Origin: Escherichia coli
Lineage (GTDB): Bacteria; Pseudomonadota; Gammaproteobacteria; Enterobacterales; Enterobacteriaceae
Strand: one strand, 5' to 3'
Assembly (NCBI GenBank): GCA_031701365.1
Contig: GCA_031701365.1_4118.1
Length of the DNA: 64,000 nt
Shown here: in pieces, positions 9,365 through 37,395 of the stretch
Position numbering within the stretch: the stretch's first letter is position 1
Layout: the number at the start of each line of letters is the position of its first letter
Notes under the pieces: model-generated
Seen by the model: only the letters and a program-made list of their open reading frames with translations
Database searches by the model: none
Told to the model about the DNA's origin: nothing
Made by a program: the position numbers and the translations under genes

Positions 9365-9607
9365 ATGAAAGTACTGACAGAATTAGAAATGTATCATAGA
9401 TTTAATAAGTACTATCATTTACTTAAACCTATACAGAGGATTAAGTGTCCCTTTGTAGTGAAACAGGTATTAATTTATGAGCATAAGTTATTTGTATCAT
9501 TAGGTACGAATGAACAAGAGTATTATTTGAAGTTGTACTTGATTACATTAATAGATTTAATTCACTATAAAACCAAACAAGCTAATAAAGAGAAATATGA
9601 AAACTAA
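9365..9607 (+). CDS. family A small protein 25
   Basis: LGTNEQEYYL; start ATG 9365 (MKVLTEL). Confidence 0.55.
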   Translation: MKVLTELEMYHRFNKYYHLLKPIQRIKCPFVVKQVLIYEHKLFVSLGTNEQEYYLKLYLITLIDLIHYKTKQANKEKYEN

Positions 9608-9941
9608 TATACAACTCAAGGTATATAAATCATTTGAACATACATATATCAAAAGTAGTCTATGTAGAGATGTAATGGATTACAAGGGTAAGCCATTCAC
9701 AATTACCTATGATTCTTATGTTAGTGATTTATATATATCATTTGTTAATTACGAAAATAAAATATACAAGCACGTTGATATTAAAGATTTAAGTACTTTA
9801 TCACCAGAGGAATACTTTCAGGAATCATTAGTATGGGATTTAGAGTTCCCTATGCCATTAGTACATAAGATGATAGTACTAATGAAAGAATCTAAACAGG
9901 AGCCTAATAGTGGTTATGAAGAACACATTATTGAGTATTAA
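9597..9941 (+). CDS. family B protein 1
   Basis: C-terminal EEYFQESLVWD. Confidence 0.6.
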   Translation: MKTNIQLKVYKSFEHTYIKSSLCRDVMDYKGKPFTITYDSYVSDLYISFVNYENKIYKHVDIKDLSTLSPEEYFQESLVWDLEFPMPLVHKMIVLMKESKQEPNSGYEEHIIEY

Positions 9942-9973
9942 GAGTTCTGATAGTACTGAGAGTACAAATGTTC

Positions 9974-10002
9974 TTGACAGTACTTTTCATTACTGATATA
10001 GT
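9974..10002 (+). promoter_or_regulatory. sigma70-like promoter
   Basis: -35 TTGACA 9974-9979, 17-bp spacer, -10 TATAGT 9997-10002. Confidence 0.45.
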
Positions 10003-10031
10003 GCACCAACGTTAATCATAGGGTACAGATT

Positions 10032-10277
10032 ATGTTAAAATTTTTAAATTTCCTTATCGTCTTGTGTATTGTTCTTGGAATTGCACCGTTTGTATTAGCG
10101 TATCTGGATTCAGATGAAATGCAGAAGATGAATTGCACAAAGACAGGACAGAGTAGAGAAGAGACGGTTATGATGCCTGTAACGGTTATTGTGAATAACA
10201 TACCAATTACGAACATGATTCCTACCCTAACGACAACGTACCAGTACTCTTGTACAGATGGAGAGAGGTGGAGATGA
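10032..10277 (+). CDS. hypothetical small membrane protein
   Basis: Hydrophobic N-terminal segment FLNFLIVLCIVLGIAPFVLAYL; weak RBS. Confidence 0.4.
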   Translation: MLKFLNFLIVLCIVLGIAPFVLAYLDSDEMQKMNCTKTGQSREETVMMPVTVIVNNIPITNMIPTLTTTYQYSCTDGERWR

Positions 10278-10594
10278 AATTTAATATAGCAAAAACATCT
10301 AATATATGTATATTTGGTTATGCCGAAGAGTTGGGTGATATTGACATTCTTTTGTACAAAAAGGATGGTGTTATGCATTTCAAGTACCAGGATGAAGAGG
10401 CAGACAATTATCCTTTACCTAATTTAGTACAAATGCAGGAAGAGGAATTATTCCAGTACAGCTTAGTATATGACATTGATATTTGCACGATGCCAGTACT
10501 AATTAATATTCAAAAAGTGATGCTCGATGTGTTTGATAGGCTAATACAAGGCACACAAGGAAGAACCATATATGTCAATGTACAAGACAATTAA
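10274..10594 (+). CDS. family B protein 2
   Basis: EELFQYSLVYD; start probably ATG 10274 (MKFNIAK). Confidence 0.6.
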   Translation: MKFNIAKTSNICIFGYAEELGDIDILLYKKDGVMHFKYQDEEADNYPLPNLVQMQEEELFQYSLVYDIDICTMPVLINIQKVMLDVFDRLIQGTQGRTIYVNVQDN

Positions 10595-11741: not shown

Positions 11742-12287
11742 ATGAATGAGATAGAATTATTAGCACACAAGATTAGTACAATAATGCTTATCCTAAATAA
11801 CAACCATCCTATATCGCAGATAGATGGAATCCTGAGTCAGAGGACAGGTGGTAGTTTATATTTGACATTAACAGAGGTTATCGCAAGGAATTACATTGAT
11901 ATTGAAATCGAGAACAGTGATGCATCAGGAAAGGTTGATGTAGGTGCATTAATCAGTTCAAATCCAGTATCAGCATCCCCATTGACCAAAGGTGTTAGTA
12001 CAGGATTCGAAGGGTATTTGTGGTACAATACCAATGATGATTATTTTATATATCAGCATTCCAATACAAATTATGATGAAGACAAATTTCAGTTCATAGA
12101 CCCTTATGATGAAGCTGAAGTATTTCAAAAATCATTAATCACAAAACCGCATGAGATGATGTATCTAATGTTATTCAGTACAATGCATTTGAATCCATTA
12201 ATTAAAGGTTTAAAATTTTATATTCAATTGAAATTAGTCCATGTAGTTTATGATTTATTAATGCAAGGATATAGTTATGAAGTATAA
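11742..12287 (+). CDS. family B protein 4
   Basis: AEVFQKSLITK. Confidence 0.6.
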   Translation: MNEIELLAHKISTIMLILNNNHPISQIDGILSQRTGGSLYLTLTEVIARNYIDIEIENSDASGKVDVGALISSNPVSASPLTKGVSTGFEGYLWYNTNDDYFIYQHSNTNYDEDKFQFIDPYDEAEVFQKSLITKPHEMMYLMLFSTMHLNPLIKGLKFYIQLKLVHVVYDLLMQGYSYEV

Positions 12288-12588
12288 AATGATGTATACC
12301 CCAGATATGATTTATGTTGAATTAGAAGATGATGACGATGGGTGGAATTTGATTTATTCAAGAAGTTCAGGTTGGTACATGGCACATTTAAATGATTCGA
12401 TAGTTACAGATTATTTTGTAGATTTCAATACATTATCCGATGAAGAATTGTTCCAACAGCAATTAGTAATTGACACGGGTGGTTATGATGTTTTATTATT
12501 AAAAAAGATACAGAAAGCTGTTATTGATTTTAAGCCCAAGATGTTGCAAAGGAAATATTATGACCTCGAAGTACCGTACCAGCAATGA
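12277..12588 (+). CDS. family B protein 5
   Basis: EELFQQQLVID. Confidence 0.6.
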   Translation: MKYKMMYTPDMIYVELEDDDDGWNLIYSRSSGWYMAHLNDSIVTDYFVDFNTLSDEELFQQQLVIDTGGYDVLLLKKIQKAVIDFKPKMLQRKYYDLEVPYQQ

Positions 12589-13126
12589 AATTCAGTACAC
12601 CTACGCTAATGCAATCATTATGGGACAAAAGTTAGCTTGTATTGTTGCAGCCTTATATAATGCCCAGAAATATCACAAGCGTCATTTCCACAAATGTATT
12701 GGTATTATTCCATCGAAGTACAATACATATATTGCGTGCACGAGTCATTTTGATAAACGATTCAATACACCTGATACCCCAAATGCCAGTAGTGTTATTG
12801 GTCTTTTGGATTTCGCACCTGGTGCTGTTATTGGAAAGAATGATTTAGAGTACGCATGGTATAATAAAAATGCACCGTTAGTAATGGTAAAATATGATAC
12901 AGAAACGAACAAAACAATAGAGTACAATACATATAAATCAGAGGAAGAATTTTTCCAAGGTTCATTGCTTGTGCCAGTGCGTTTGTTGTTTTATAATGTC
13001 CTTATTAGTACAGTACACAATAGTCCATTACACAAGAATCACAAAATTAATTTCAATTTTTGTGCTTATGCGATTGATGGTGTGTATGAGTGTTTAATGG
13101 AGGTATTGAGTTATGAAGCTGAATAA
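12560..13126 (+). CDS. family B protein 6
   Basis: EEFFQGSLLVP; start ATG 12560 after AAAGGA. Confidence 0.6.
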   Translation: MTSKYRTSNEIQYTYANAIIMGQKLACIVAALYNAQKYHKRHFHKCIGIIPSKYNTYIACTSHFDKRFNTPDTPNASSVIGLLDFAPGAVIGKNDLEYAWYNKNAPLVMVKYDTETNKTIEYNTYKSEEEFFQGSLLVPVRLLFYNVLISTVHNSPLHKNHKINFNFCAYAIDGVYECLMEVLSYEAE

Positions 13127-13454: not shown

Positions 13455-13939
13455 AGTTTAGTTTAGATGCTGCCTTTAAATTTGTTCACAAGATAGAAAC
13501 AATATACAGTACATTATGTGCAATAAAATCAGTAACAGAAGAGCTTGATGTTGGTGAAAAATATCAGGTATGGAATAATACATTTCTAAACAAAGAACGT
13601 TGCTCTACGGGGTTTAATATTTTAACATTTAATCCCAGCAATTGTTACCCAGAGAAGCATGAACGTTATCCGAATGACGACATGTGGTTTGATTACACAA
13701 AAGATGGTGATATGTCATCCCTTGTAGTTCCTGATGATTTTAATGCCGAAGATTTAACGGAAGAGTGGTGGTTTCAACAGAATTTAGTACACGATGATAT
13801 TGATTTATTTTTTTATGTAGTATTTAAAATGCTTTACCACAACAATATATTAAAAGATAGTGTGTTTTTTTCATGTCTATATATTGATGATTTGTACAAT
13901 GAAATCCAAATCAACATACCCAGAACGCCTGTATCGTAA
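13433..13939 (+). CDS. family B protein 8
   Basis: EEWWFQQNLVHD. Confidence 0.6.
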   Translation: MQYMYDLEFSLDAAFKFVHKIETIYSTLCAIKSVTEELDVGEKYQVWNNTFLNKERCSTGFNILTFNPSNCYPEKHERYPNDDMWFDYTKDGDMSSLVVPDDFNAEDLTEEWWFQQNLVHDDIDLFFYVVFKMLYHNNILKDSVFFSCLYIDDLYNEIQINIPRTPVS

Positions 13940-13964
13940 GATATGGGCTTTTTTCGTTTTGGTA

Positions 13965-13993
13965 TTGACAAAGAAGTGCAAAGCTGTTATCAT
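13965..13993 (+). promoter_or_regulatory. sigma70-like promoter
   Basis: -35 TTGACA 13965-13970, 17-bp spacer, -10 TATCAT. Confidence 0.4.
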
Positions 13994-14021
13994 GTGTAAT
14001 CATTTTAAAGGAGAACATATA

Positions 14022-14534
14022 GTGAGTTTCATAATCCCAAGTACATACGAAGATGCATCAAGTGCAGTTCATAAGATTCATTATATTTTTAATTTAATTA
14101 TTAGATCTGCAAAAATTAAAATGTATGCACCTCTTGTGACAAATAATCGAAATGAAGAAATTTTTATTAGCACAGACAAAATTATTTTTCCATATTTCAA
14201 TGAAGATAGATTGTGGTTCATACATTTAGCTGCATTACAAAAATATAAGATGTCAATTCGTAATAATTTGGATATACCGTTATATCATCCTGATATTGGA
14301 GAGGATGAATATTTTCAGTACAGTACAGTACACCGCCATGAAGATATCTTTGTTGCTATGCTTATTGCTAAATTGAATACCGTTGATTTGGAGCAGTACA
14401 AATACAATAATAAATCATGTAAGATCATAATCCCTGCATTCATAGCTCTTTATGATTATGTGGTGCATAACAAAAAAGATGATACATATGCTTTCAATGA
14501 AGAGTATTTGAATTTTTTTAAGGAGAACATATGA
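14022..14534 (+). CDS. family B protein 9 (GTG start)
   Basis: DEYFQYSTVHR; AAAGGAG RBS 8 nt upstream of in-frame GTG 14022; ORF track gives 13860. Confidence 0.55.
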   Translation: MSFIIPSTYEDASSAVHKIHYIFNLIIRSAKIKMYAPLVTNNRNEEIFISTDKIIFPYFNEDRLWFIHLAALQKYKMSIRNNLDIPLYHPDIGEDEYFQYSTVHRHEDIFVAMLIAKLNTVDLEQYKYNNKSCKIIIPAFIALYDYVVHNKKDDTYAFNEEYLNFFKENI

Positions 14535-15058
14535 GCAGTGAAGTGCTGAAATCAATGACATTCAATGAAATTGGTACATTTAAAGATAAGATCATTGATT
14601 GCATTGAATACATGATTTGTAGTAATATCGAAAGTATCGAGATATTTAACAAGACAAATCGCTCTTACCATATGATGTACATTGCAAACAATAATGGTAT
14701 CATTCCATTTATTTCGGATAGTACAATATGGTACGCATGTGATACGAAAAAAACCACAATAGGTTTACATTCATTTGAGACACATTATGATCTAATTATT
14801 CCTGAACATTGTATGCAAGAAGAAGAATATTTTCAAATGCAATGTATACATTCACCATTAGTGTTGTTTAGTTTATATATTATACCTTATATCACCAAAT
14901 GTGTTCATGAGAATAAAGCTCCGTGGAATCATGAATTTGTATCGTTGAAGTTATTGTATAATGTATTAGTAGAATATTATGATTACAGGCACAATGGTAC
15001 AATCAGTGATGTATGGGATTTTGAATCGCTAAGGGTGAAAACATACACAGGTGAATGA
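14531..15058 (+). CDS. family B protein 10
   Basis: EEYFQMQCIHS; AAGGAG RBS. Confidence 0.6.
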   Translation: MSSEVLKSMTFNEIGTFKDKIIDCIEYMICSNIESIEIFNKTNRSYHMMYIANNNGIIPFISDSTIWYACDTKKTTIGLHSFETHYDLIIPEHCMQEEEYFQMQCIHSPLVLFSLYIIPYITKCVHENKAPWNHEFVSLKLLYNVLVEYYDYRHNGTISDVWDFESLRVKTYTGE

Positions 15059-15674
15059 TATGACCAGAATTAAAATGTATGATTTGATGCAGTACAGTAA
15101 AATTGCCATTCCAGTGCTTAATAAAGTGCTGGATGCATTCATTGCCAAATACCCTGAGAATTCAGTGTTATGTATTCCATTTAGTGTTCCAGATAAAGAT
15201 GATATATTCCAAGTGAATGTCAGTACACGTGGTATTACATTGCAGCAGAAATACATGGATACGGAATATTATGGAATAAAGTTGGATTCAGTACAGGGTT
15301 CAAAATCAGCCTATGATTTTTTTGTTCCTAATAACATCGAGTCATGGGAAACAAACATTTCAAAGAAAGATGAAAATGATGTTCCTATTAGTGGTGTGTT
15401 CAACAATAAAGTTTTTTATTATTACGAAACCGACAAATTCCCTGAAGAGTTATATTACAATTCAGAAATGAATGAAGATGTAGATGCATTCATGTTTCAA
15501 TTATCTTTAGTACATGATATCATTGATGTTCAAGAGTTAAGAGCAGAAATCAATTTAGCTAAAGAGTTATCGGACATGCTGCCACCGTTTAGTATGCTTT
15601 TTTGTGAAGGAGGTTATTTTTCAAAAGAAGTGTTTGAACATTTCGTAGATGTTGTAAAAGGGTTGGATATATAG
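15051..15674 (+). CDS. family B protein 11
   Basis: DAFMFQLSLVHD. Confidence 0.6.
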   Translation: MNDMTRIKMYDLMQYSKIAIPVLNKVLDAFIAKYPENSVLCIPFSVPDKDDIFQVNVSTRGITLQQKYMDTEYYGIKLDSVQGSKSAYDFFVPNNIESWETNISKKDENDVPISGVFNNKVFYYYETDKFPEELYYNSEMNEDVDAFMFQLSLVHDIIDVQELRAEINLAKELSDMLPPFSMLFCEGGYFSKEVFEHFVDVVKGLDI

Positions 15675-15675: not shown

Positions 15676-15870
15676 ATGCTTATAATTGATATTAAACAAA
15701 AATACCGTAAGTTTGATTGGTTCACCGATAGTTTCCAGCTTGAATTATTACATATGAATATCAGTGAAACATTATGTGCAGAAACACAAGATGAATTTGA
15801 TGATAGAGTGATGAACATAGTAATGCTTTCTTGCTTTAAACATTTTGGTTATTTTTTCGGGCAGAATTGA
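15676..15870 (+). CDS. hypothetical small protein (weak family B-like FQLELL)
   Basis: 64-aa ORF; ATGA-type junction. Confidence 0.4.
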   Translation: MLIIDIKQKYRKFDWFTDSFQLELLHMNISETLCAETQDEFDDRVMNIVMLSCFKHFGYFFGQN

Positions 15871-15877
15871 GGTAAAA

Positions 15878-16393
15878 ATGCATCAACACAAGCATCATTC
15901 ATATGATTTTGCAATTAACATTATGAAGTTTATTCGAGCGTTGGAGGATGGGAAGCTTAGTCATAAGTACAGGAAAGAGGGTAACAATTGGTTCAGAAAT
16001 GATTCCGAGTTCAGTTGTCATAAAATCGTGTATAGTAATCAGTACAGTGCCAATTACCTACAAGATGTAGTGATGTGTTTTGAATACGTGTTGCAGTTCA
16101 GGGGTTCAATCCAAGATGAGTTGATGGAGAACATGTACATCCGATACCTTCCAATGCTCAAAGATGAAAATGTATTATTAAATTCAATATATCAACGAGT
16201 TCGTGAAATAGAGTGCAGGGATATATTAGATACAGAAGAATCGTATTTCCAGCAATCCCTGATTTATTCACCTGATTTATTACAGGTACATAATTTGTTT
16301 AATACATTACGTCAGAACATCAGTACAGACATATTTTTGTCATTATCGGATTATGATACATTTGTCAAAGATTTAGAGGAAATAGGTTTATGA
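15878..16393 (+). CDS. family B protein 12
   Basis: ESYFQQSLIYS; start ATG 15878 after GAGG. Confidence 0.6.
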   Translation: MHQHKHHSYDFAINIMKFIRALEDGKLSHKYRKEGNNWFRNDSEFSCHKIVYSNQYSANYLQDVVMCFEYVLQFRGSIQDELMENMYIRYLPMLKDENVLLNSIYQRVREIECRDILDTEESYFQQSLIYSPDLLQVHNLFNTLRQNISTDIFLSLSDYDTFVKDLEEIGL

Positions 16394-16734
16394 GTAGATT
16401 TTCAGTTTATATAGTAAACGTCAGTAAAGATGGTAGTTTAATTGAATTTGATGTAGTTGATAACAATGATAATTCATATGGTATTAAGGTACAGGACAAT
16501 GATGTGCAGTTCAGTACAAGAACAAATTTTGAAAATCCAGTCCAAGTTCCTAATTTCATAGAAGATGAAGCAGCACGTTTCCAATACGAAACGGCATATG
16601 ACAATGTACATATGCATATTATTATGCAAACGAGTTTAGTTCAATTAGTTCCTTTGTTCAGACAAAATATATATGTACATGAAGTGTCGATTAATGGCAT
16701 TCAAAGTTCCGTTTTGTTCGATACAAATATGTAA
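16390..16734 (+). CDS. family B protein 13
   Basis: AARFQYETAYD. Confidence 0.55.
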   Translation: MSRFSVYIVNVSKDGSLIEFDVVDNNDNSYGIKVQDNDVQFSTRTNFENPVQVPNFIEDEAARFQYETAYDNVHMHIIMQTSLVQLVPLFRQNIYVHEVSINGIQSSVLFDTNM

Positions 16735-16744
16735 GGAAAGTACA

Positions 16745-19180: not shown

Positions 19181-19189
19181 GATTATAAA

Positions 19190-25651: not shown

Positions 25652-25658
25652 GGTTTAT

Positions 25659-30035: not shown

Positions 30036-30058
30036 AGACCCGTATGGGTCTTTTTGTG
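30035..30058 (+). terminator. rho-independent terminator
   Basis: AAGACCC-gtat-GGGTCTT followed by TTTTGTGTTT. Confidence 0.65.
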
Positions 30059-30122
30059 TTTATGGCTTTACAAGAGCATTCAGGTGTGTTATACTTGATT
30101 TTAACTAGAGTTGGAGGAATCT

Positions 30123-30689
30123 ATGAGTACTGAATTAATTAAAGAAGTCACATTACTTCTGAAGCATTGTTTTAAGTTCATTCCTGATACTGGCTCACGC
30201 CAGTACATTAAAGTTAATGAGAAATATAACATCAATATCCTTGTATCTGAAACTGCGAGCAGTTATGCTAACATTGAGTTGGATTCTGAAGAAAAATATA
30301 CAGTATTACAAATCATAGCAGATGTACAACGTAAACAAGATTATCGTTCTTCATTTTACAACGATTATCTGTGTGTTTGCTCAAACTTCAGTGAGAATAA
30401 AATTGTGTATAAGAATTTATACACACATGAAGTGATTGATACATATAATTATAAAATTTCATCTGATGAATACAATGTTCTAATGTTCAACGCAAACCTT
30501 TTGTATGATGCCAGTACTGTACGCTGTTTAGAGTTAGCATATAAAATTCCAAAGATCATGGAAAGAAAAGATTTGATTCACTTTAAAACTATTTTAAAAT
30601 ACAGTACAAAAGAATTAGAGGATTTAGTACAGGCTCTTAAGAATTTCATTAATGAACATGTACCTGTTAAATTCGAGGATGCACAATGA
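30123..30689 (+). CDS. family B-like protein 40 (divergent)
   Basis: GGAGG RBS, start ATG 30123; motif degenerate. Confidence 0.5.
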   Translation: MSTELIKEVTLLLKHCFKFIPDTGSRQYIKVNEKYNINILVSETASSYANIELDSEEKYTVLQIIADVQRKQDYRSSFYNDYLCVCSNFSENKIVYKNLYTHEVIDTYNYKISSDEYNVLMFNANLLYDASTVRCLELAYKIPKIMERKDLIHFKTILKYSTKELEDLVQALKNFINEHVPVKFEDAQ

Positions 30690-31270
30690 ACCATATCAGA
30701 ACTAAAATTTTGAGACTCATGCATGACATTGCAGAACTTTCAGAGATTCATGACATTACGGAAATTGTTGAATTTGATAATTATCGACTGAAAATTGAAA
30801 ACAAATCCAAACATCGTTTTGGTTCAGTTCAGTTGGATGTATATAAAACTTATGAATTTTCTAAAAAAATTAAAAGTTCATGGGATACGATTACTATGTA
30901 CATTCGCACATCCAGAAATCGTGAACGTATTGGTTCTATTTCTTCTAATATGGTATTTGCGAATGCATTACATGAAAAAATGAATAAAATTGTAGAATCT
31001 GATTTCAGTGAAGATGATGGTTTTATTGGGTTGGATGTTCCACCAGAATTAGACCAAAGTGAAGATATTCGAGATGCATTCATTTTCCAGAAATCATTGT
31101 TGGACAATTACAAAGAATTCGAGTACTTAATGCTTTGTTACGATACTGCAAAAATTCTTGATTGTGGTGAACTAGTTATGTACAATGATTTTATCAATTG
31201 CAAGACTGATGTTCTGAATACACTACTTCAAAATATAGAATCTGTTAAGGAAAAATATGAACGCTTATAG
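30686..31270 (+). CDS. family B protein 41
   Basis: DAFIFQKSLLDN. Confidence 0.6.
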   Translation: MNHIRTKILRLMHDIAELSEIHDITEIVEFDNYRLKIENKSKHRFGSVQLDVYKTYEFSKKIKSSWDTITMYIRTSRNRERIGSISSNMVFANALHEKMNKIVESDFSEDDGFIGLDVPPELDQSEDIRDAFIFQKSLLDNYKEFEYLMLCYDTAKILDCGELVMYNDFINCKTDVLNTLLQNIESVKEKYERL

Positions 31271-31838
31271 TTATATGACAGAACGCCATCAGTTATTATA
31301 TGATATCAGTAAAAAAATGCTATCAATTGTTGGTAGTGCGAAAGAAATTGAAAAACAATATCTCATCCGTGATGTATCAATTTCATCTAAATGTTGGTCA
31401 AATGAATATTACGACCACGGTATTCTTACTATTTCTGGGGCCAGAAATATTTGTATTGTAAAAAATAAAAGTAAAAGTAATGAAGAGTGTGAGATTAGAA
31501 CCGATATACAAATTAAGGATGATGGAAGTTTTTCACATCACCCATTCCATATTAGTACTGTTGGTGTTTTATATAATATTAAAGTACTATTCGGTGATGA
31601 AGAGTATGTGTTAAAAGCTATCAATCCAGATTCAAGTACAGTTGAAGAAGAACTGTTCCAGATGAGCACTGTTATACCTGAAGAGGTTCTTAGTACTGTT
31701 GTTTTTTGTAGTTTAATTTATCATGAATACAAAAAGAACCAATTCGATTTCCACATTTTAGGAACGTACATCTTCAATACTTTGAATGTTGATCGTTTAA
31801 AAGCATTAAATGCAGCAATGGATAAGGTGCTACAATGA
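31257..31838 (+). CDS. family B protein 42
   Basis: EELFQMSTVIP. Confidence 0.6.
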   Translation: MNAYSYMTERHQLLYDISKKMLSIVGSAKEIEKQYLIRDVSISSKCWSNEYYDHGILTISGARNICIVKNKSKSNEECEIRTDIQIKDDGSFSHHPFHISTVGVLYNIKVLFGDEEYVLKAINPDSSTVEEELFQMSTVIPEEVLSTVVFCSLIYHEYKKNQFDFHILGTYIFNTLNVDRLKALNAAMDKVLQ

Positions 31839-32263
31839 CAAGAGATGATTGTTTGTACATATGGGATATAATTGAAACTACACTTTCAAATCCAGAAAAT
31901 TATAAAACAAAAAAAAGACAACGACACAAAATATGGATAGATTTGTTCGTTGAGGGCATACACGCAGTGACTATTTGGGATTCACCGAGGGCATCAGCAT
32001 CTACTCTATTGGACAATGAATGCATTGATTGCATTAATTCCACTTTTCATCTCTACGGTACTACATTTTTCGGTACATTTCTGGATATTGAAAGTAAAGA
32101 TGATATTGATTCACTTGCGTTACAATACCAAGTACTGTATAATACTAAATTAATTTACGATTTAGTACTAGCTTCTTATGTGTATAAATTAATGATGAAA
32201 TATAATCATATTTCTGTTTCAGTTTATACTAAGGATATTCTTTCATTAAGAGACAAAACATGA
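31835..32263 (+). CDS. family B-like protein 43 (divergent)
   Basis: DSLALQYQVLYN variant. Confidence 0.45.
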   Translation: MTRDDCLYIWDIIETTLSNPENYKTKKRQRHKIWIDLFVEGIHAVTIWDSPRASASTLLDNECIDCINSTFHLYGTTFFGTFLDIESKDDIDSLALQYQVLYNTKLIYDLVLASYVYKLMMKYNHISVSVYTKDILSLRDKT

Positions 32264-32769
32264 GTTTATTAAATGCACGCGAATTAGTTGAGATGTATGA
32301 GATTTTGTCTTCATATAAAAATTCTCATGGAGATGTGATTCTCGACAAAAAGTTCCATGTCAGTGTTGAACATATATCAAATATAGATATGATTTCTTTG
32401 GTGGAAAGTAATAAGTCAGGTCTTGAACGCGATATCATGCGTTTGATTTATATTCCCAAACCATCATATACTAATGATAGTTCAATTAGTAATGAGACAT
32501 TTATGTATAGTCCTGGTACGGATTCTACTATAGTATCGCTGTCCAATAAATCAATGGGTACTTTCCAATTCATCTATACCAGTACTGATAACATTGAAGA
32601 AATTGAATTTCAAAACAATACATTAAGTCCATGTAGTAGTGTTATAACCTTTATGTCATATCTATGGTCAACTAAAACAAGTGCTGTTGTATATAGTTCA
32701 AATTATACACAAGATAGTATTGTTGAATCATATAAAGTTCTAAAGGAATACTATGAAAATAACAAATGA
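32260..32769 (+). CDS. family B-like protein 44
   Basis: EEIEFQNNTLSP. Confidence 0.5.
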   Translation: MSLLNARELVEMYEILSSYKNSHGDVILDKKFHVSVEHISNIDMISLVESNKSGLERDIMRLIYIPKPSYTNDSSISNETFMYSPGTDSTIVSLSNKSMGTFQFIYTSTDNIEEIEFQNNTLSPCSSVITFMSYLWSTKTSAVVYSSNYTQDSIVESYKVLKEYYENNK

Positions 32770-33334
32770 TTTTATTAAAAGTGTAGTACACCCTATGCTT
32801 AGTATTATGAAAAAAATACAGAATCTACCGGAAGATAACGATTACAAGTTTAATCGTTTTGATTCAGATGTGTTTTGTATTGAAATTGAAATTAATAACA
32901 ATCGCAATTTACATTTAAAATTCAAAGAATCGTCAAGTCCGTACTACAACTTTGATATGAATTTTAAAATAGATACTGACATTGAAGAAAACGTAATATC
33001 AAATCATACTAGCAAAAATGGTTTTATGCATAGAACTACTATGTACAATAATAAAAATAGTATTATATCTAAATGGAATCATCAATTCACTAAAATTTGT
33101 GAAATTGAATATAGTGATTTTGGTGAAGAGAATTACTTTCAGTTAAGTACAATTCATGAACTTCCACCGTATGATTATGTTAAAACATGGTTTGATATTC
33201 ATAATATAATTGATGATGCAATCAAACTTCCATTTGGTGTGTCAATATCATATACTGCTCCTAAAACATTTGTTTTTACTGAAGATATGATTATGAAAAA
33301 GATATGGGCAATTATCCCACTTATGATGGATTAA
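32753..33334 (+). CDS. family B protein 45
   Basis: ENYFQLSTIHE. Confidence 0.6.
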   Translation: MKITNDFIKSVVHPMLSIMKKIQNLPEDNDYKFNRFDSDVFCIEIEINNNRNLHLKFKESSSPYYNFDMNFKIDTDIEENVISNHTSKNGFMHRTTMYNNKNSIISKWNHQFTKICEIEYSDFGEENYFQLSTIHELPPYDYVKTWFDIHNIIDDAIKLPFGVSISYTAPKTFVFTEDMIMKKIWAIIPLMMD

Positions 33335-33339
33335 ATTCG

Positions 33340-33366
33340 TACCAGGGGTTGACTCTGGTATTTTTG
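33340..33366 (+). terminator. rho-independent terminator
   Basis: TACCAG-gggttgact-CTGGTA followed by TTTTT. Confidence 0.6.
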
Positions 33367-33395: not shown

Positions 33396-33947
33396 ATGAA
33401 CTACAATCATGATCTTTTTACATTATGTGCATCCAAATGTGTTGATGGATGGACAGATAAAATCAATACCATAATTCATCGATATCTGGTCTTTAGTTCT
33501 CGTGCTCGAAGTGAGGGGGCTATGGATTTCAAATATACACTATCTATTGATGGTGTAACTATCCATGCAGACGAAGAACGTCTGAGCATTAATTTGTATG
33601 ATTCCTGTGTATTTGCTATTCACCAAAAGATGGGGAAAGGATGGGGTTGTAATAACATTAACTCAAAAGCTATCTTTTGGGTTGGTCACCACCAGACAGT
33701 ACTTGATCCTTCAATCAAATCTAATCTTTTAACCGACAACATCGTTTATGATTTAGCGTACCCTGAAGAACTACATTTCCAGTTGAGTACATTACATAAT
33801 TTGGCACACTACGATGATTGTTATAAAACATTAGAACTATGCCATTCCCTTGATCTTAAAGATAAATTGATACAAGTTTACCCTTCATTCTTTCATGAAG
33901 AAGTACAAAGTACACTAGATCATATTTTATATGGATACGATAAATGA
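33396..33947 (+). CDS. family B protein 46
   Basis: ELHFQLSTLHN; AAAGGAG RBS. Confidence 0.6.
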   Translation: MNYNHDLFTLCASKCVDGWTDKINTIIHRYLVFSSRARSEGAMDFKYTLSIDGVTIHADEERLSINLYDSCVFAIHQKMGKGWGCNNINSKAIFWVGHHQTVLDPSIKSNLLTDNIVYDLAYPEELHFQLSTLHNLAHYDDCYKTLELCHSLDLKDKLIQVYPSFFHEEVQSTLDHILYGYDK

Positions 33948-34546
33948 GAAAAAGTTATCAAGAAGCTATTGACTTAATTCGTGAAGTTATCAAGGTGGCT
34001 CCTGCTGCTATTGAGTTCAAGAAGTCCATATACAAGAAGTATGGTCCAATGTCGAGTATGTGCTTTCAAAAGAAACGTAGTGCATATACTACACAGTACT
34101 GGAATGATTCTATCATCCTGAGCAATGAGACTCAGCGTATTTTATCTCTAGAATCTGAACCTACTGATTACGGGGAAGGGAACATTTGTGTACCTGATTA
34201 TGATGAAATTAACTTCAACTGCGGTGATTTTGAAACAACATTATTACTTCATGAGGGTTATCCAGAAGGTGATGTATTAGCTGAGTACAATCCAAAAACT
34301 AAAATTCTCAAAAGTGGAATCCAGTTCACTATTAATAACAAAGATGATGTTCAAGCAGCACTGATGCAACTGAGTACAAGTGAACCTATCACTATTAGTG
34401 TAGAAGAGTTATGGGGAATTATTTCAGTACTCAATGAGTGCTACAAAGTAAAATCATTGCGTAAACACAGCATTATATTACATACCAATATGGCAAATAT
34501 AAAATGTAAGCACATTCAAGAAATGGTGGTTCCAGATGGACTTTAA
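33944..34546 (+). CDS. family B-like protein 47 (divergent)
   Basis: AALMQLSTSEP variant. Confidence 0.5.
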   Translation: MRKSYQEAIDLIREVIKVAPAAIEFKKSIYKKYGPMSSMCFQKKRSAYTTQYWNDSIILSNETQRILSLESEPTDYGEGNICVPDYDEINFNCGDFETTLLLHEGYPEGDVLAEYNPKTKILKSGIQFTINNKDDVQAALMQLSTSEPITISVEELWGIISVLNECYKVKSLRKHSIILHTNMANIKCKHIQEMVVPDGL

Positions 34547-35120
34547 AGAAATTGAAAGTAAATTAAAGTACTTCAAAGATATCAAACTTCTTTGGAAAAA
34601 GTATAAAGTTGATTACAATTTCAGTGATGATGAGACAATAAAATACATTGAGATTAATATCAAAATCAAGTTCAAGAATAATAATTATGGTGAAGTAACC
34701 TTAAATCATACTGGTATATCACTCAAGGACTATGATGGTACAACACTCGCATATTTTGACTTCACACCAGAACCAGGTGAAACACTACTTAGTGAGATAA
34801 ATTCCTATGACATGGAAGTGTTCGGCGGGAATCCGTTACTGTTCCGACTTTCTGAAGAGTGGAGTGAAGAGTACTACACTTACAAAGATGGTGTAGTACT
34901 TGACATTCATGGAGAAGTTGTGAATGACTTGGAAGAACGTTTGTTCCAAGAATTGTGTGTTTCAAATACTTCATATGCATACAATCATATCCTTGACATG
35001 TTTGATTTATATAGTAAAATAGATGCTGAAATGAAGGCACATGGTATTCATTACCTTACAATTAACGACTATGCTCAACTCGAAACCGCTGTGAAAGCAT
35101 TGACTAAAGTACTGAAATAG
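34536..35120 (+). CDS. family B protein 48
   Basis: ERLFQELCVSN. Confidence 0.55.
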   Translation: MDFKEIESKLKYFKDIKLLWKKYKVDYNFSDDETIKYIEINIKIKFKNNNYGEVTLNHTGISLKDYDGTTLAYFDFTPEPGETLLSEINSYDMEVFGGNPLLFRLSEEWSEEYYTYKDGVVLDIHGEVVNDLEERLFQELCVSNTSYAYNHILDMFDLYSKIDAEMKAHGIHYLTINDYAQLETAVKALTKVLK

Positions 35121-35129
35121 GAATGAAAT

Positions 35130-35543
35130 ATGAAACTGTATCATGCGAGTACTGTAAAAATTGATAACTTTTATATCCCGTATGGTGGTCTTCATATGGG
35201 AGGTAAACACAGTGCTTTGGAAGCTGCATTACGCAAGCTGAGAAGCCCACTGAACGTAGTAGACGCATGTACAGTATACTTGCATACCTTAGAAGTTGAT
35301 GTTGATAACGTGCTTCTGTGTGAAGATTTAGGCAGTGATGATGAGTGGCGTTCACTTATTGAGAATTGCACTGCTCAAGGTTATGATGCTGTTCAGTACA
35401 AAAATGACTACGAGCCTGATAATGTTCCTAGTTATATGATTTGGGATGCATCTAAAGTTCGCATCATTGAAGTTGATGCTATGCATATGGATGAAGCTGA
35501 AATAATTATCGAAGATTTTCTTGATGAATATGAAGGTGTATAA
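35130..35543 (+). CDS. hypothetical protein (not family B)
   Basis: 137-aa ORF MKLYHASTVKID..., acidic C-terminus; no family motif. Confidence 0.55.
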   Translation: MKLYHASTVKIDNFYIPYGGLHMGGKHSALEAALRKLRSPLNVVDACTVYLHTLEVDVDNVLLCEDLGSDDEWRSLIENCTAQGYDAVQYKNDYEPDNVPSYMIWDASKVRIIEVDAMHMDEAEIIIEDFLDEYEGV

Positions 35544-36079
35544 TGACTGACCCGATGGTAGCACTGGCACGTACTAAGTTACTATTAAAGATTGGTGAGA
35601 TTTTTACGGTTCTTCTGTCCAATAATATTGATATTACTGAGCTAGATATTAAGCAACCGTGGGAAGTGACTATGTTCTCGGCGTTCCACCGATTGTCATA
35701 TAAAGGTGAAAGTGTTCTTGATTTTAACCCTAAAGCAAAATTCATAGATTATGCTGCGTTGTACAGAGAGTTGCACCGAAATATTTATTCCGGTTGTATA
35801 ACCAATAACTTCAAAGAAATTAAAGTTCAAACTGCATCACATGAGTTCAATGATTTACTTTATCCAGAATTTAATCTAACTGAAGAATTACTCTTTCAGT
35901 ACTCGTTAATTCTCACAAATCTCGAAACGTTAGAGTACTACAAAGAGTTAGTAGATATTTTTATGAATACACGACTTTCAAAAGATATTGTGATATTCTG
36001 GTATACAGAGCATGTTACGGAGGAATTGCTTACTGAATTTCTTCTAAATATGACAGCTATAAAGGAGAAGTTATGTTAG
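35543..36079 (+). CDS. family B protein 49
   Basis: ELLFQYSLILT. Confidence 0.6.
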   Translation: MTDPMVALARTKLLLKIGEIFTVLLSNNIDITELDIKQPWEVTMFSAFHRLSYKGESVLDFNPKAKFIDYAALYRELHRNIYSGCITNNFKEIKVQTASHEFNDLLYPEFNLTEELLFQYSLILTNLETLEYYKELVDIFMNTRLSKDIVIFWYTEHVTEELLTEFLLNMTAIKEKLC

Positions 36080-36546
36080 ATATTTTAGGAAACATTGATA
36101 CTGCAAATTATTTTATCCAGGACGCACTGTTCAATACAGTTCAACATGGATTAGAAGTTCGTCATAACGTTTACCAAGGTGATGGTTATTTCGTTGATAT
36201 TGTTGAGGCACGAAAGAATACGTTTAATGTTAACATTACAACACTGGGTAGACAGAACATTGCACGAATTTTAGTAAGTAAAGATGAAATTGTATTGAGA
36301 TACAGTGCTAAGTTTATGTTGACTTATAAGAAAAAAACTGATATGTTCAGTACTAATTTATTTGATGAGCCATTTGACCTTGAAGATATTGAAGCTACTT
36401 TCTTTACTCAAAGTACTATGGTAAAATACACTGATGTTCAATTTTCTGCTGATGTAATGTCAGAAACATTACAAATGATCAAGGTATTATTTTATGCATT
36501 TGAGCAATTTAGAGAAGAAAGAAACAAGGTTAACAACCACAGATGA
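36073..36546 (+). CDS. family B-like protein 50
   Basis: EATFFTQSTMVK variant. Confidence 0.5.
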   Translation: MLDILGNIDTANYFIQDALFNTVQHGLEVRHNVYQGDGYFVDIVEARKNTFNVNITTLGRQNIARILVSKDEIVLRYSAKFMLTYKKKTDMFSTNLFDEPFDLEDIEATFFTQSTMVKYTDVQFSADVMSETLQMIKVLFYAFEQFREERNKVNNHR

Positions 36547-36907
36547 ACTAATAGAGGCGATCACTAAGGAGTCAAAATACCACAAAGGGATTCGTCTATA
36601 TTTTATAGATATTGGTTCAATGGAAGGCATATACATTTATGGTTCACAATCTTTATCTTATGATGTAATGCCAAAAAAACATGTAAAAATCTTTTTAGGT
36701 TCAGATAAAAAAACTTTCTTGACAATTAATGATAAAAACGTTATTATGAATTCGTTGGGTCATGATAAGGTGGAAATTGATCTAAACACACTGGAGGATA
36801 TTGATTTTTTTCAATACGAGTGTTTAGGTGTTGACTTACATGGCATTAGTAGCGATATGATAAAATCATTAATCAAATATTTCGAAGGTGTTCATAAATG
36901 TATCTAA
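36494..36907 (+). CDS. family B-like protein 51
   Basis: DIDFFQYECLGVD; start uncertain. Confidence 0.45.
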   Translation: MHLSNLEKKETRLTTTDELIEAITKESKYHKGIRLYFIDIGSMEGIYIYGSQSLSYDVMPKKHVKIFLGSDKKTFLTINDKNVIMNSLGHDKVEIDLNTLEDIDFFQYECLGVDLHGISSDMIKSLIKYFEGVHKCI

Positions 36908-37395
36908 CTAAATCAATGAAAAATTCATTTGATAAAATCAAGAGTTGTCTTGATGGGGAAAATATTACAAGTGTTACACAAACTGCTGACCAAATTCAAA
37001 GCAGTTCAAGTGATTGTACTGTTATTTTAGGTTTACATAGTCTACGTTTATCAATAGTAAATAATATTGACAACACTGCTATTGTAATCACACCATGCAA
37101 TATTCAAAATGAGAATGGTGTATATCTTCATCACATGGGAACAGTATTTCATATTTTCAATACAAACGAAAACATTGTTAAGGAATACAAATCTCTTAAT
37201 ATTGATTCAGGTGAATTATTTCAAATGAGTACTTTGTACTCATGTAATTTCACAGATACTTCATGCATTTTGCCATTTTTCTTGGAAATTATTAAGAAAA
37301 TGGAAAATTTAAAACGTGAATACAATAAAGAAATGGTTCCTGAAGCTATATTAAATATTACTAATGCTATAGAGAAGTATAATGCAGTGACTTAA
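36898..37395 (+). CDS. family B protein 52
   Basis: GELFQMSTLYS. Confidence 0.6.
   Translation: MYLTKSMKNSFDKIKSCLDGENITSVTQTADQIQSSSSDCTVILGLHSLRLSIVNNIDNTAIVITPCNIQNENGVYLHHMGTVFHIFNTNENIVKEYKSLNIDSGELFQMSTLYSCNFTDTSCILPFFLEIIKKMENLKREYNKEMVPEAILNITNAIEKYNAVT

What the first reader, a model, noticed from the sequence alone, without database searches (positions are those of the whole stretch)
9597..37395. About 50 consecutive paralogs of an unrecognised protein family (family B, C-terminal FQxS motif) spanning roughly 28 kb
Almost every ORF from 9.6 to 37.4 kb (100-200 aa each) carries the same C-terminal module: acidic residues, then [FY]-F-Q-x-S-[TL]-[VI]-x-[DN], then a hydrophobic helix (examples EEYYFQQSTVYD, EELFQYSLVYD, EEMYFQGSCIHD). 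The N-terminal 60-150 aa are very diverse. Larger proteins outside the array (40098-40952, 48484-49062, 49059-49748) carry the same motif. Variable N-terminus plus conserved C-terminal module, at this copy number, suggests a diversifying effector family such as host-takeover or anti-defence proteins, with the C-terminus as a shared targeting, packaging or oligomerisation module. I do not recognise the family.
Basis: seen in the sequence. Interest (0 to 1): 0.9.

Follow-up and report, generated by a model that had tools for sequence, protein, structure and literature searches.

The report
Unnamed 45-copy jumbo-phage protein family
A 28-kb stretch of this giant E. coli phage is filled with about 45 old, diverged copies of one uncharacterised small protein that shares an invariant Phe-Gln motif, is found only in RaK2-like jumbo phages, matches no known domain or solved structure, and is probably made early in infection to act inside the host cell.

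Summary
The window comes from an Asteriusvirus jumbo coliphage (97% identical to phage 121Q). Forty-three + strand ORFs between 9597 and 37395 match one profile (E 1e-7 to 1e-32). All share an invariant F-Q inside [ST]-E-E-x-[YL]-F-Q-x-S-[LT]-[VIL]-[YHF]-[DN]. No minus-strand ORF matches. Three to five more ORFs are probable members, so the count is 43-48, not 50, and the genes are not strictly consecutive.

The family is confined to RaK2-like jumbo phages, at a syntenic site: about 45 copies in Asteriusvirus, about 28 in RaK2, at least 4 in GAP32. The paralogs are old. They are soluble and mostly acidic, lie behind near-consensus sigma-70 promoters, and were not detected in two virion proteomes.

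Best reading: an early, non-structural set of host-directed binding proteins built on one scaffold. The function is inferred, not shown. The packaging idea is contradicted.

The parts
9597..9941 (+). family member (short type, 114 aa), motif EEYFQESLVWD
   Evidence: own-profile E 4.4e-14
10250..10594 (+). family member (short type), EELFQYSLVYD; the true start is probably the ATG at 10274
   Evidence: E 2e-14
11742..12287 (+). family member (181 aa), AEVFQKSLITK
   Evidence: E 4.3e-23
12277..12588 (+). family member (short, 103 aa), EELFQQQLVID
   Evidence: E 8e-14
12524..13126 (+). family member, EEFFQGSLLVP; the true start is probably downstream, near 12560
   Evidence: E 4.5e-24; 188-aa database orthologue P0021
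13433..13939 (+). family member (168 aa), EWWFQQNLVHD
   Evidence: E 2.1e-24
13860..14534 (+). family member, DEYFQYSTVHR; the true start is probably near 14016
   Evidence: E 6.2e-15
14531..15058 (+). family member (175 aa), EEYFQMQCIHS
   Evidence: E 1.2e-18
15051..15674 (+). family member (207 aa), AFMFQLSLVHD
   Evidence: E 3.8e-13
15845..16393 (+). family member, ESYFQQSLIYS
   Evidence: E 1.2e-20
16390..16734 (+). family member (short, weakest robust hit), AARFQYETAYD
   Evidence: E 4.5e-7; hhalign E 7e-6
16673..17296 (+). family member, ESLFQYSTMYD
   Evidence: E 2.8e-16
18043..18468 (+). family member (short), AALFQAALVFD; first gene of a lineage-specific trio; 100% identical to phAPEC6 gp447c, which is deposited as 'amidohydrolase 3'
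   Evidence: E 6.8e-12
18465..18824 (+). family member (short), AELFQESLVFD
   Evidence: E 1.5e-17
18821..19180 (+). family member (short), GELFQEALVFD
   Evidence: E 5.8e-14
19190..19660 (+). family member (156 aa), EYYFQQSTVYD; the protein modelled; first gene of a lineage-specific tandem group of five
   Evidence: E 2.3e-30; AlphaFold pLDDT 89.6, pTM 0.84
19662..20132 (+). family member, DYYFQQSTIYN
   Evidence: E 9.5e-24
20129..20569 (+). family member, EYYFQQSLIFN
   Evidence: E 2.3e-23
20572..21060 (+). family member, EYYFQNSTIYN
   Evidence: E 2.8e-32
21038..21490 (+). family member, EYYFQNSTVYD
   Evidence: E 3.9e-28
21487..21801 (+). family member (short), SFIFQESLVWD
   Evidence: E 2.3e-9
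22106..22555 (+). family member, EGYFQGSTVYE
   Evidence: E 4.3e-20
22552..23088 (+). family member, EQCFQLSCTDP; clear orthologue of RaK2 ORF398
   Evidence: E 4.5e-13; 58.9 bits to RaK2 against 22.3 bits to the nearest paralog
23443..24003 (+). family member, ENIFQNSVLHD
   Evidence: E 3.2e-13
24602..24964 (+). family member (short), DELFQESLVWD
   Evidence: E 3.8e-11
24888..25331 (+). family member, EEMFQYSTVFN; the true start is probably near 24951
   Evidence: E 3.2e-19
25310..25651 (+). family member (short), GELFQESLVFN
   Evidence: E 8.7e-12
25611..26195 (+). family member, EYYFQLSLLFP
   Evidence: E 1.5e-24
26255..26731 (+). family member, EEFFQYSTVYP
   Evidence: E 2.2e-22
26728..27222 (+). 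family member, EMYFQGSCIHD; orthologue of RaK2 ORF419
   Evidence: E 3e-24
27188..27550 (+). family member (short), EELFQQSTIST
   Evidence: E 1e-16
27534..27947 (+). family member, EEIFQYSLVLP
   Evidence: E 1.9e-15
27935..28438 (+). family member, ESYFQNSLIYT (basic, pI 9.1)
   Evidence: E 4.9e-20
28422..28964 (+). probable degenerate member (KFSLSDNEY in place of the motif)
   Evidence: profile-profile E 1.6e-5, probability 79%; BLAST E 1.3e-6 to RaK2 member r_28569_29153
28961..29524 (+). family member, SAMFQLSLIHN; orthologue of RaK2 ORF424
   Evidence: E 2.2e-21
29517..30035 (+). family member, EVLFQLSTICD
   Evidence: E 2.6e-20
30686..31270 (+). family member, AFIFQKSLLDN
   Evidence: E 5.5e-12
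31257..31838 (+). family member, EELFQMSTVIP
   Evidence: E 3.1e-18
31835..32263 (+). possible degenerate member (LALQYQVLYN)
   Evidence: motif matrix 3.9 bits, shuffle p = 0.0014; hhalign E 0.023
32260..32769 (+). family member, EIEFQNNTLSP; orthologue of RaK2 ORF430
   Evidence: E 2.5e-13
32753..33334 (+). family member, ENYFQLSTIHE
   Evidence: E 2.9e-16
33396..33947 (+). family member, ELHFQLSTLHN
   Evidence: E 1.9e-13
34536..35120 (+). probable degenerate member (ERLFQELCVSN)
   Evidence: hhalign E 3.2e-4; HMM E 0.04-0.13
35543..36079 (+). family member, ELLFQYSLILT
   Evidence: E 3.1e-13
36494..36907 (+). family member, IDFFQYECLGV
   Evidence: E 6.1e-10
36898..37395 (+). family member, GELFQMSTLYS; last gene of the array; positional orthologue of RaK2 ORF439
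   Evidence: E 4.5e-12
48484..49062 (+). possible outlying member (PEHFQISTLYD)
   Evidence: motif matrix 10.3 bits, above all 2120 shuffles; HMM E 0.0024-0.06
49059..49748 (+). outlying member (229 aa), SEEEHFQLMMMRA
   Evidence: HMM E 4.9e-6; motif matrix 10.0 bits
9974..10002 (+). sigma-70-type promoter-like site (TTGACA-17-TATAGT, with TG) in the gap before 10032/10250
13927..13993 (+). terminator-like hairpin (13927-13948) followed by a promoter-like site (13965-13993, 11 of 12 matches, with TG); a boundary between transcription units inside the array
26192..26221 (+). perfect sigma-70 consensus (TTGACA-18-TATAAT, with TG) in the 59-bp gap before 26255
30034..30095 (+). terminator-like hairpin (30034-30053) followed by a promoter-like site (30067-30095, 10 of 12 matches, with TG)
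33339..33361 (+). terminator-like hairpin in the gap between 33334 and 33396

Best explanation
This is a multigene family specific to one phage clade. Its members are small (100-210 aa), soluble, mostly acidic and non-structural. All are built on one alpha+beta domain.

The conserved segment [ST]-E-E-x-[YL]-F-Q-x-S-[LT]-[VIL]-[YHF]-[DN] forms a short capped helix and turn. It joins the beta-sheet to the C-terminal helices, so it is the folding core of the scaffold and not a separable C-terminal tag.

The genes sit in several operons driven by near-consensus sigma-70 promoters. They are therefore most likely transcribed by host RNA polymerase early in infection. The proteins stay in the infected cell and are not packaged.

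The family was already multi-copy in the common ancestor of Asteriusvirus and Alcyoneusvirus. It has been kept at one syntenic site, with some later tandem duplication. Surfaces diverge quickly while the core motif is held fixed.

The most likely role is a repertoire of binding proteins, each aimed at a different host component (takeover, anti-defence or host range). Specificity would lie in the variable beta-sheet and N-terminal helix.

Shown here: family membership, protein-level constraint, distribution, synteny, age of the paralogs, lack of homology to known families, and lack of transmembrane segments. Inferred: early timing (from promoters), cytoplasmic action, the binder function and the structural role of the motif.
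For: **Membership and motif**
- 43 members with invariant F-Q.
- The motif matrix separates members completely from shuffles and from minus-strand ORFs.

**Selection acts on the protein**
- Phe codons are TTT 23 / TTC 21 and Gln codons CAG 23 / CAA 21. Ser uses both AGY and TCN codons.
- Pooled dN/dS is 0.26-0.31 against 121Q and phAPEC6.

**One domain with no known relative**
- AlphaFold gives pLDDT 89.6 and pTM 0.84, with the motif in helix 106-113.
- BFVD fold matches are all to RaK2-like phage proteins.
- No hit in Pfam, NCBIfam, PADLOC or PDB sequences.

**Likely early transcription**
- Promoter-like sites with at least 11 of 12 matches number 19 on the + strand and 2 on the - strand, against 3.5 +/- 1.8 expected. 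Several lie in the rare intergenic gaps of the array, next to terminator-like hairpins.
- The GAP32 depositors annotated the same promoter type in the syntenic region.

**Non-structural and soluble**
- The array genes are absent from the 62 phAPEC6 virion proteins. RaK2 virion genes lie in other clusters.
- No member has a 19-residue hydropathy window of 1.6 or more. Median pI is 4.84. No Cys, His, Lys or Arg column is conserved, which argues against an enzyme or metal site.

**Old and maintained, with fast-diverging surfaces**
- The nearest paralog is 32% identical at the median and 56% at most.
- 21 of 43 members are closer to a RaK2 protein than to any paralog in their own genome.
- Gene order is collinear with fEgEco12, and with RaK2 at the 3' end of the array.
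- Orthologue identity is 72.6% against 84.5% for neighbouring genes (p = 0.0012). Positional orthologues in RaK2 are 21-41% identical, against 60-64% for embedded non-family genes.

**Copy number varies between genera**
- About 45-46 in Asteriusvirus, about 28 in RaK2, at least 4 in GAP32.
Against: - No experiment or homology ties any member to a host target or a defence system. PADLOC holds defence systems, not anti-defence proteins, so its silence says little.
- Timing rests on promoter consensus alone. I found no transcriptome for any Asteriusvirus or Alcyoneusvirus phage.
- Virion proteomics can miss low-copy small proteins.
- dN/dS well below 1, no recent duplicates and collinear orthologues do not look like a classic arms-race family. 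They would fit housekeeping roles in the phage's own cycle equally well.
- The absolute invariance of Gln across more than 200 sequences from different genera is stronger than a purely structural role usually requires. It may mark a shared functional contact.
- I had no model coordinates, so whether the motif is buried or exposed was not measured.
Confidence: 0.45

Rival explanations
1. Shared-docking adaptor model. The invariant F-Q helix-turn is a common interface that docks every paralog onto one partner. That partner could be a host hub such as a protease, RNA polymerase or the sliding clamp, or a phage protein, or other family members. The variable part would recruit different targets, as substrate-receptor families do.
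For: - F and Q are invariant in all 43 window members. They are also present in nearly all of the sequences examined from RaK2 and 146 database clusters. The rest of each protein falls to 10-30% identity.
- The acidic pair before the motif and the Ser and hydrophobic residues after it are kept at 65-88%.
- Such extreme conservation of a polar residue often marks a contact.
Against: - AlphaFold places the segment in the centre of one compact domain, at pLDDT 95-97 and between two helices. The residue pattern reads as [ST]-x-x-E helix capping plus hydrophobic core residues.
- No partner is known and no multimer prediction could be run.
- The resemblance of Q-x-S-L-[VI]-[YF] to bacterial clamp-binding peptides (QL[SD]LF, QLxLxL) comes from memory only. 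The position after Q is variable here.
Confidence: 0.2
2. The family serves the phage's own cycle and not host manipulation. Members could be non-virion assembly chaperones, replication or transcription accessory factors, or organisers of a large replication compartment.
For: - Purifying selection, old paralogs, stable collinear order and retention across genera.
- Location upstream of conserved nucleotide and nucleic-acid metabolism genes: Dam methylase, RNA ligase and PseT in RaK2.
Against: - Copy number ranges from at least 4 (GAP32) to about 45 (Asteriusvirus) among phages that share the same core machinery. A core function would not tolerate that.
- Family members diverge faster than neighbouring genes.
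- Sigma-70-type promoters suggest expression before phage-directed transcription.
Confidence: 0.15
3. The motif is a protease recognition site. E-x-x-Y-F-Q followed by G or S resembles the TEV / 3C-type site E-x-x-Y-x-Q|(G/S), so the proteins could be cleaved after Gln by a phage or host protease.
For: A few members match the TEV consensus literally, for example 26728-27222 (EEMYFQGS) and 22106-22555 (EEGYFQGS). The TEV consensus itself is taken from general knowledge.
Against: - The residue after Gln is variable (Y 21%, Q 16%, L 14%, E 14%, N 12%). It is Gly in only 3 of the 44 sequences counted, which include the 64-aa ORF 15676-15870.
- The segment is helical and lies inside a confidently folded domain, not in a linker.
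- No 3C-like protease was seen in the window. The only protease reported for these phages in the papers I read is the T4-type prohead protease.
Confidence: 0.02
4. Not a real protein family: spurious ORFs, or a repeated DNA element that happens to translate to the motif.
For: None beyond the fact that all members are annotated only as hypothetical proteins.
Against: - Synonymous codons are evenly mixed at the invariant residues, and both serine codon classes are used.
- dN/dS is 0.26-0.31.
- Orthologues occur in different genera.
- The predicted fold is confident.
- No minus-strand ORF matches the profile.
Confidence: 0.01

Closest known systems
PHROG families phrog_9317, 12674, 13866, 15629, 19795 and 25 others (all 'unknown function')
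   Same: These PHROGs contain the orthologues of the window's genes. Some cross-hits between them are visible.
   Different: PHROGs splits the 43 members into 30 separate families and assigns no function. The single superfamily, its invariant F-Q motif and its clade-wide syntenic array are not recorded there.
Lineage-specific multigene expansions in large DNA viruses, for example the roughly 35-copy zinc-ribbon family of Bacillus phage G (PMC7824862), and the multigene families of African swine fever virus and the Bcl-2-like families of poxviruses (general knowledge)
   Same: Dozens of diverged paralogs of one small fold, clustered in the genome, non-structural, and variable in copy number between related viruses.
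   Different: No sequence or fold relationship to any of them. This array is old and collinear between genera rather than terminal and rapidly turning over. Its function is untested.
Hyperplastic early regions of T4-type phages: blocks of small early ORFs behind sigma-70-like promoters (general knowledge; RaK2-like phages are T4-related 'group 2' jumbo phages, PMC7824862)
   Same: Same-strand, tightly packed small ORFs, strong sigma-70-type promoters, unknown functions, lying between conserved modules.
   Different: T4-type plastic regions are mostly unrelated singletons. Here one family supplies about 70% of a 28-kb block.
TEV / picornaviral 3C protease cleavage site E-x-x-Y-x-Q|(G/S)
   Same: The string E-E-x-Y-F-Q is the same, and three members also have Gly after Gln.
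   Different: The residue after Gln is not conserved. The motif is helical and embedded in a folded domain. No cognate protease is known. This is a resemblance only.
Bacterial sliding-clamp binding peptides QL[SD]LF / QLxLxL (recalled from the literature, not tested)
   Same: Q-x-S-L-[VI]-[YFH] overlaps the hexapeptide pattern. Some members read QLSLIH, QLSLVH or QLSLLF.
   Different: The second position is variable. The peptide is not in a disordered tail but between two helices, at pLDDT above 95. This is a lead only.

Membership tests
Any curated protein family (Pfam-A, NCBIfam) | Score above the family's curated cut-off against its profile HMM | tested here: not met
   All 43 members were scanned. 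One sub-threshold Pfam hit (DUF3741, 17 bits against a cut-off of 24) and three isolated NCBIfam hits at E > 1e-3.
Known anti-phage defence system components (PADLOC-DB) | Significant match to a defence-system protein model | tested here: not met
   Only two chance-level Cas5e hits (E 0.006-0.009), each in 1 of 43 members.
Virion / ejected (packaged) proteins of RaK2-like phages | Detection in purified virions by mass spectrometry | tested here: not met
   The phAPEC6 array genes are gp404c-gp466c. None is among the 62 virion proteins; that list has no gene numbered between gp347 and gp549. All RaK2 virion proteins map to two other clusters. These data come from the literature, not from this isolate.
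TEV/3C-type protease substrates | E-x-x-Y-x-Q followed by Gly or Ser, in an accessible linker | tested here: not met
   Gly follows Gln in 3 of the 44 sequences counted, and the commonest residues there are Y, Q, L, E and N. The segment is helical and inside the domain.
Integral membrane or secreted proteins | A hydrophobic segment of about 19 residues (Kyte-Doolittle mean of 1.6 or more) or a signal peptide | tested here: not met
   0 of 43 members reach 1.6. The neighbouring ORF 10032-10277 scores 2.8 as a positive control. Signal peptides were not tested with a dedicated predictor.
Early (host RNA polymerase-transcribed) phage genes | Transcription from sigma-70 promoters in the first minutes of infection | tested here: inconclusive
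   Sites with at least 11 of 12 consensus matches number 19 on the coding strand against 2 on the other, with 3.5 +/- 1.8 expected. Several lie in the array's intergenic gaps. No transcript data exist for this genus.
The family defined here (F-Q family of RaK2-like jumbo phages) | Match to the family profile, plus the motif [ST]EEx[YL]FQxS[LT][VIL][YHF][DN] at about two-thirds of the protein's length | tested here: met
   43 ORFs at E of 4.5e-7 or better. The motif matrix trained on outside sequences gives a median of 27.8 bits, against a null maximum of 8.2. About 28 members lie at the syntenic site in RaK2.

The most novel reading that the evidence does not exclude
The family is a phage-encoded substrate-receptor system. 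The invariant F-Q helix-turn docks all of the roughly 45 paralogs onto one cellular machine, such as a host protease, the sliding clamp or RNA polymerase. Each variable beta-sheet face delivers a different host protein to it. One conserved handle would then give the phage dozens of separate ways to degrade, sequester or re-target host and defence factors. This would be a bacterial-virus counterpart of the F-box or BTB receptor families, built on a fold not yet seen in the PDB.
Probability: 0.1. Interest if true: 0.9.

Novelty: new variant of a known kind. Interest (0 to 1): 0.62.

Why it matters
RaK2-like jumbo phages (121Q, PBECO4, phAPEC6, RaK2, K64-1 and relatives) are being developed for therapy against E. 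coli and Klebsiella, yet more than 80% of their genes have no assigned function.

This one family accounts for about 45 genes, roughly 6-8% of the genome. It can now be treated as a single object with a defined profile, a diagnostic motif and a confident structural model.

If the members are host-directed binders, they form a ready-made library of about 45 natural variants on one scaffold, each possibly aimed at a different bacterial protein. That would be useful for finding new anti-defence or growth-inhibiting activities. It would also help explain why these genomes are so large.

The predicted fold has no PDB match, and it carries an invariant Phe-Gln pair of unknown purpose. That makes it a good target for structural work.

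Tried and rejected
- **Wider distribution.**
  - A full HMMER scan of 1.84 billion representatives found 155 clusters. Nearly all keep the motif. All 20 that I traced come from Asteriusvirus-like phage genomes or phage-sized contigs.
  - A strict back-translated motif pattern in IMG/VR hit only 121Q, RaK2 and two uncultured contigs.
- **Rescuing the degenerate array ORFs (23994, 30111, 33944, 36073).**
  - HMM, hhalign and the motif matrix were not significant.
  - AlphaFold of 30111-30689 gave the same order of secondary-structure elements, but only pLDDT 66.
  - Its BFVD search returned only its own orthologue. These ORFs are left unresolved.
- **A combined window + RaK2 + database profile.** It was less sensitive than the window-only profile, probably because the 974-column alignment was poor.
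- **DNA-level repeat explanation.** Rejected from codon usage.
- **Positive selection.** Pooled dN/dS is well below 1. Per-site tests were not run.
- **Literature.** The papers on CBB, RaK2, Sharanji, phAPEC6, fEgEco12 and PA5oct, and the Iyer et al. jumbo-phage review, mention paralogs only in general terms or not at all. None describes this family.
- **Not done.** I did not count members in the roughly 285 kb of the genome outside the window.

Full report
**Origin of the window.** A 6-kb piece of the region is 97.4% identical to Escherichia phage 121Q and 95-97% identical to PBECO4, phAPEC6, slurp01 and other Asteriusvirus jumbo coliphages of about 350 kb. In 121Q and phAPEC6 every gene of the region is deposited as 'hypothetical protein'. 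The one exception is phAPEC6 gp447c, deposited as 'amidohydrolase 3'. It is 100% identical to family member 18091-18468 and has no amidohydrolase signal in Pfam.

**Checking the observation.** I listed all ORFs of at least 50 aa on both strands (186 on the + strand, 78 on the - strand) and seeded a profile from ORFs carrying an acidic-x-FQ-x-[ST] pattern. The profile was then iterated on full-length sequences.
- The search converges on 43 + strand ORFs between 9597 and 37395, with E-values from 4.5e-7 to 2.8e-32. No minus-strand ORF is found.
- In a MAFFT alignment of the 43, Phe and Gln are the only invariant columns.
- The anchored logo reads h-[ST]-E-E-x-[YL]-F-Q-x-S-[LT]-[VIL]-[YHF]-[DN], followed by an amphipathic helix pattern.
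- As an independent test I trained a 27-position matrix only on outside sequences: RaK2 plus database clusters less than 50% identical to the window. Window members score a median of 27.8 bits. The best of 2120 shuffled ORFs scores 8.2, and the best of 78 minus-strand ORFs scores -10.8.
- The family covers 20.1 kb of the 27.8-kb span.

- The robust count is 43.
- 28422-28964 (profile-profile E 1.6e-5, and a BLAST hit to a RaK2 member), 34536-35120 (E 3.2e-4) and perhaps 31835-32263 are degenerate members.
- 49059-49748 (E 4.9e-6) and probably 48484-49062 are outlying members.
- 40065-40952 is not supported.
- 23994, 30111, 33944 and 36073 remain unresolved.
- AlphaFold of 30111-30689 gave the same order of secondary-structure elements as the family, but only pLDDT 66. 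Its fold search returned only its own orthologue.

**These are real genes under protein-level constraint.**
- At the invariant residues the codons are evenly split: TTT 23 / TTC 21 and CAG 23 / CAA 21.
- The conserved Ser uses both AGY and TCN codons. A repeated DNA element would not produce this.
- Pooled Nei-Gojobori dN/dS for 40-41 family genes is 0.31 against 121Q and 0.26 against phAPEC6. Other genes in the region give 0.18-0.26.

**What the protein looks like.**
- AlphaFold2 on 19190-19660, using the 43-paralog alignment, gives pLDDT 89.6 and pTM 0.84.
- The elements in order are an N-terminal helix (3-22), a six-strand beta region (35-94), a short helix, helix 106-113 (which is the EEYYFQQS motif), a tight turn (TVYD), helix 118-132, a strand and a last helix.
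- The high pTM indicates one compact domain, not a variable domain with an appended module.
- The motif reads as a [ST]-x-x-E helix cap, a short helix carrying F-Q, a hydrophobic turn and an Asp or Asn cap of the next helix. That is the centre of the fold.
- Short members (100-140 aa) align only from profile positions of about 17-70 onward, so they lack the N-terminal helix.
- No member has a transmembrane-like segment. Median pI is 4.84, and 33 of 43 are below 5.5. No Cys, His, Lys or Arg column is conserved, which argues against an enzyme or metal site.

**Comparison with what is known.**
- Pfam, NCBIfam and PADLOC give nothing for any of the 43.
- A profile search of PDB sequences gives nothing better than E 0.13.
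- PHROGs contains the orthologues but splits them into 30 families, all of unknown function.
- A Foldseek search of BFVD returns only proteins of RaK2-like jumbo phages: 121Q, SP27, RaK2, GAP32, Serratia BF, Yersinia fHe-Yen9-04 and Erwinia pEa_SNUABM_47.
- The RaK2 paper says only that about 10% of its proteins are paralogues. The CBB paper counts 22 paralogous ORFs. The Iyer et al. review of jumbo-phage expansions does not mention this family. The Sharanji, fEgEco12, phAPEC6 and PA5oct papers do not describe it either.

**Distribution and history.**
- A full HMMER scan of 1.84 billion representative proteins finds 155 clusters at E below 1e-3. Nearly all keep the motif even at 20-35% overall identity.
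- The 20 clusters I traced come from Asteriusvirus-like genomes (JNE01, A4, 350-kb contigs in E. coli assemblies) or from unnamed contigs of up to 249 kb.
- A strict back-translated motif pattern hits only 121Q, RaK2 and two uncultured contigs in IMG/VR.
- RaK2 (genus Alcyoneusvirus, Klebsiella host) has about 28 members at E below 1e-3. They lie at the syntenic position, upstream of the same conserved genes: the orthologue of 37438-37911, Dam methylase, a cytidylyltransferase-like gene and RNA ligase.
- 121Q has 45 profile hits and fEgEco12 has 46. GAP32 (Mimasvirus) has at least 4. One uncultured contig has 11 in 9.4 kb.
- Within the window the nearest paralog is 32% identical at the median and 56% at most, so there are no recent duplicates.
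- 21 of 43 members are closer to a RaK2 protein than to any paralog in their own genome. Clear orthologue pairs include 22552, 26728, 28961, 32260 and 36898.
- The groups 18043-19180 and 19190-21490 are expansions specific to Asteriusvirus.
- Gene order is collinear with fEgEco12 throughout. Family orthologues there are 72.6% identical at the median, against 84.5% for neighbouring genes (Mann-Whitney p = 0.0012).
- Against RaK2, positional orthologues are 21-41% identical, while embedded non-family genes are 60-64% identical.
- Overall the array is old and maintained at one site. Protein surfaces evolve quickly around a fixed core.

**Expression and location.**
- Sigma-70 promoter-like sites with at least 11 of 12 consensus matches number 19 on the coding strand and 2 on the other. 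A Markov model predicts 3.5 +/- 1.8.
- Inside the array they fall in the rare intergenic gaps: 9974, 13965 and 26192 (a perfect consensus with an extended -10), with a weaker site (10 of 12) at 30067.
- Two of them directly follow terminator-like hairpins at 13927 and 30034. This suggests several early operons read by host RNA polymerase.
- The GAP32 depositors annotated the same promoter type in the syntenic region.
- In phAPEC6 the array is gp404c-gp466c, and none of these is among the 62 virion proteins found by mass spectrometry.
- RaK2 virion proteins map to two other clusters.
- Together with the absence of membrane segments, this points to cytoplasmic, non-structural proteins.

**Interpretation.** The best-supported reading (confidence about 0.45) is an early repertoire of small binding proteins on one scaffold, directed at host components. 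The motif would be the folding core, and specificity would lie in the variable beta-sheet and N-terminal helix. The main rivals are:
- **Shared docking (0.2).** The invariant F-Q segment is a common interface for one partner. The invariance of Gln across genera keeps this idea alive.
- **Phage-internal role (0.15).** The spread in copy number from 4 to 45 argues against it.
- **TEV-like cleavage site (0.02).** The residue after Gln is variable and the motif lies inside a folded helix.
- **Artefact (0.01).** Refuted by the codon and dN/dS tests.

'Diversifying' holds only in the sense of faster divergence under overall purifying selection.

**Limits.**
- I had no model coordinates, so burial of F and Q was not measured.
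- No multimer prediction could be run, and the AFDB fold library was unavailable.
- Timing rests on promoter consensus only.
- The roughly 285 kb of the genome outside the window was not scanned.

Noticed in passing
window 4164-11023, plus 23066-23453: A second multigene family. At least 19 + strand ORFs of 63-96 aa share h-LGT-N-[YF]-QE-x-[YV]-x-x-Y-[IL]-x-x-L near residues 40-57, and none of 78 minus-strand ORFs matches. Four copies are interleaved with the F-Q family (10572, 10757, 23066, 23262). BLAST links them to small RaK2 ORFs.
   Followed up: partly
whole window, + strand: Near-consensus sigma-70 promoters (at least 11 of 12 matches) number 19 on the coding strand and 2 on the other, with about 3.5 expected. 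Three perfect TTGACA-N16-18-TATAAT sites lie in intergenic gaps at 1122, 2312 and 26192; a fourth perfect site at 43032 lies inside an ORF.
   Followed up: partly
window 18091-18468; L002 15097-15474: phAPEC6 gp447c is deposited as 'amidohydrolase 3'. It is 100% identical to this F-Q family member and has no amidohydrolase signal in Pfam, so the deposited name looks wrong.
   Followed up: yes
window 42710-43243: 121Q and fEgEco12 annotate the orthologue as 'ribonucleotide reductase A'. RaK2 annotates it as a putative cytidylyltransferase. Pfam shows only weak, sub-threshold cytidylyltransferase-like and FAD-synthetase matches, and nothing resembling a ribonucleotide reductase.
   Followed up: partly
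window 10032-10277: An 81-aa ORF inside the array has a strongly hydrophobic N-terminal segment (Kyte-Doolittle 2.8), so it is probably a small membrane protein. It is 88% identical in fEgEco12.
   Followed up: no
window 35130-35543 and 37438-37911: Two non-family genes at the 3' end of the array are much better conserved than their neighbours (60% and 64% identity to RaK2). The second is present in 72 RaK2-like phage records, including phages of Erwinia, Yersinia, Serratia, Xanthomonas and Cronobacter, so it marks the syntenic site well. Neither has a Pfam match.
   Followed up: partly
window 18000-19200 compared with L001 20133-21772 and L002 15097-16715: Copy number differs between close isolates. 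The window has three genes of the ELFQE[SA]LVFDKK subgroup, where 121Q and phAPEC6 each have four, plus a small extra ORF.
   Followed up: partly
window 18091-18468 compared with the rest of the array: This gene is 100% identical to phAPEC6, while the surrounding array is about 95.7% identical to phAPEC6 and 97.4% to 121Q. That suggests mosaic exchange between Asteriusvirus isolates.
   Followed up: no
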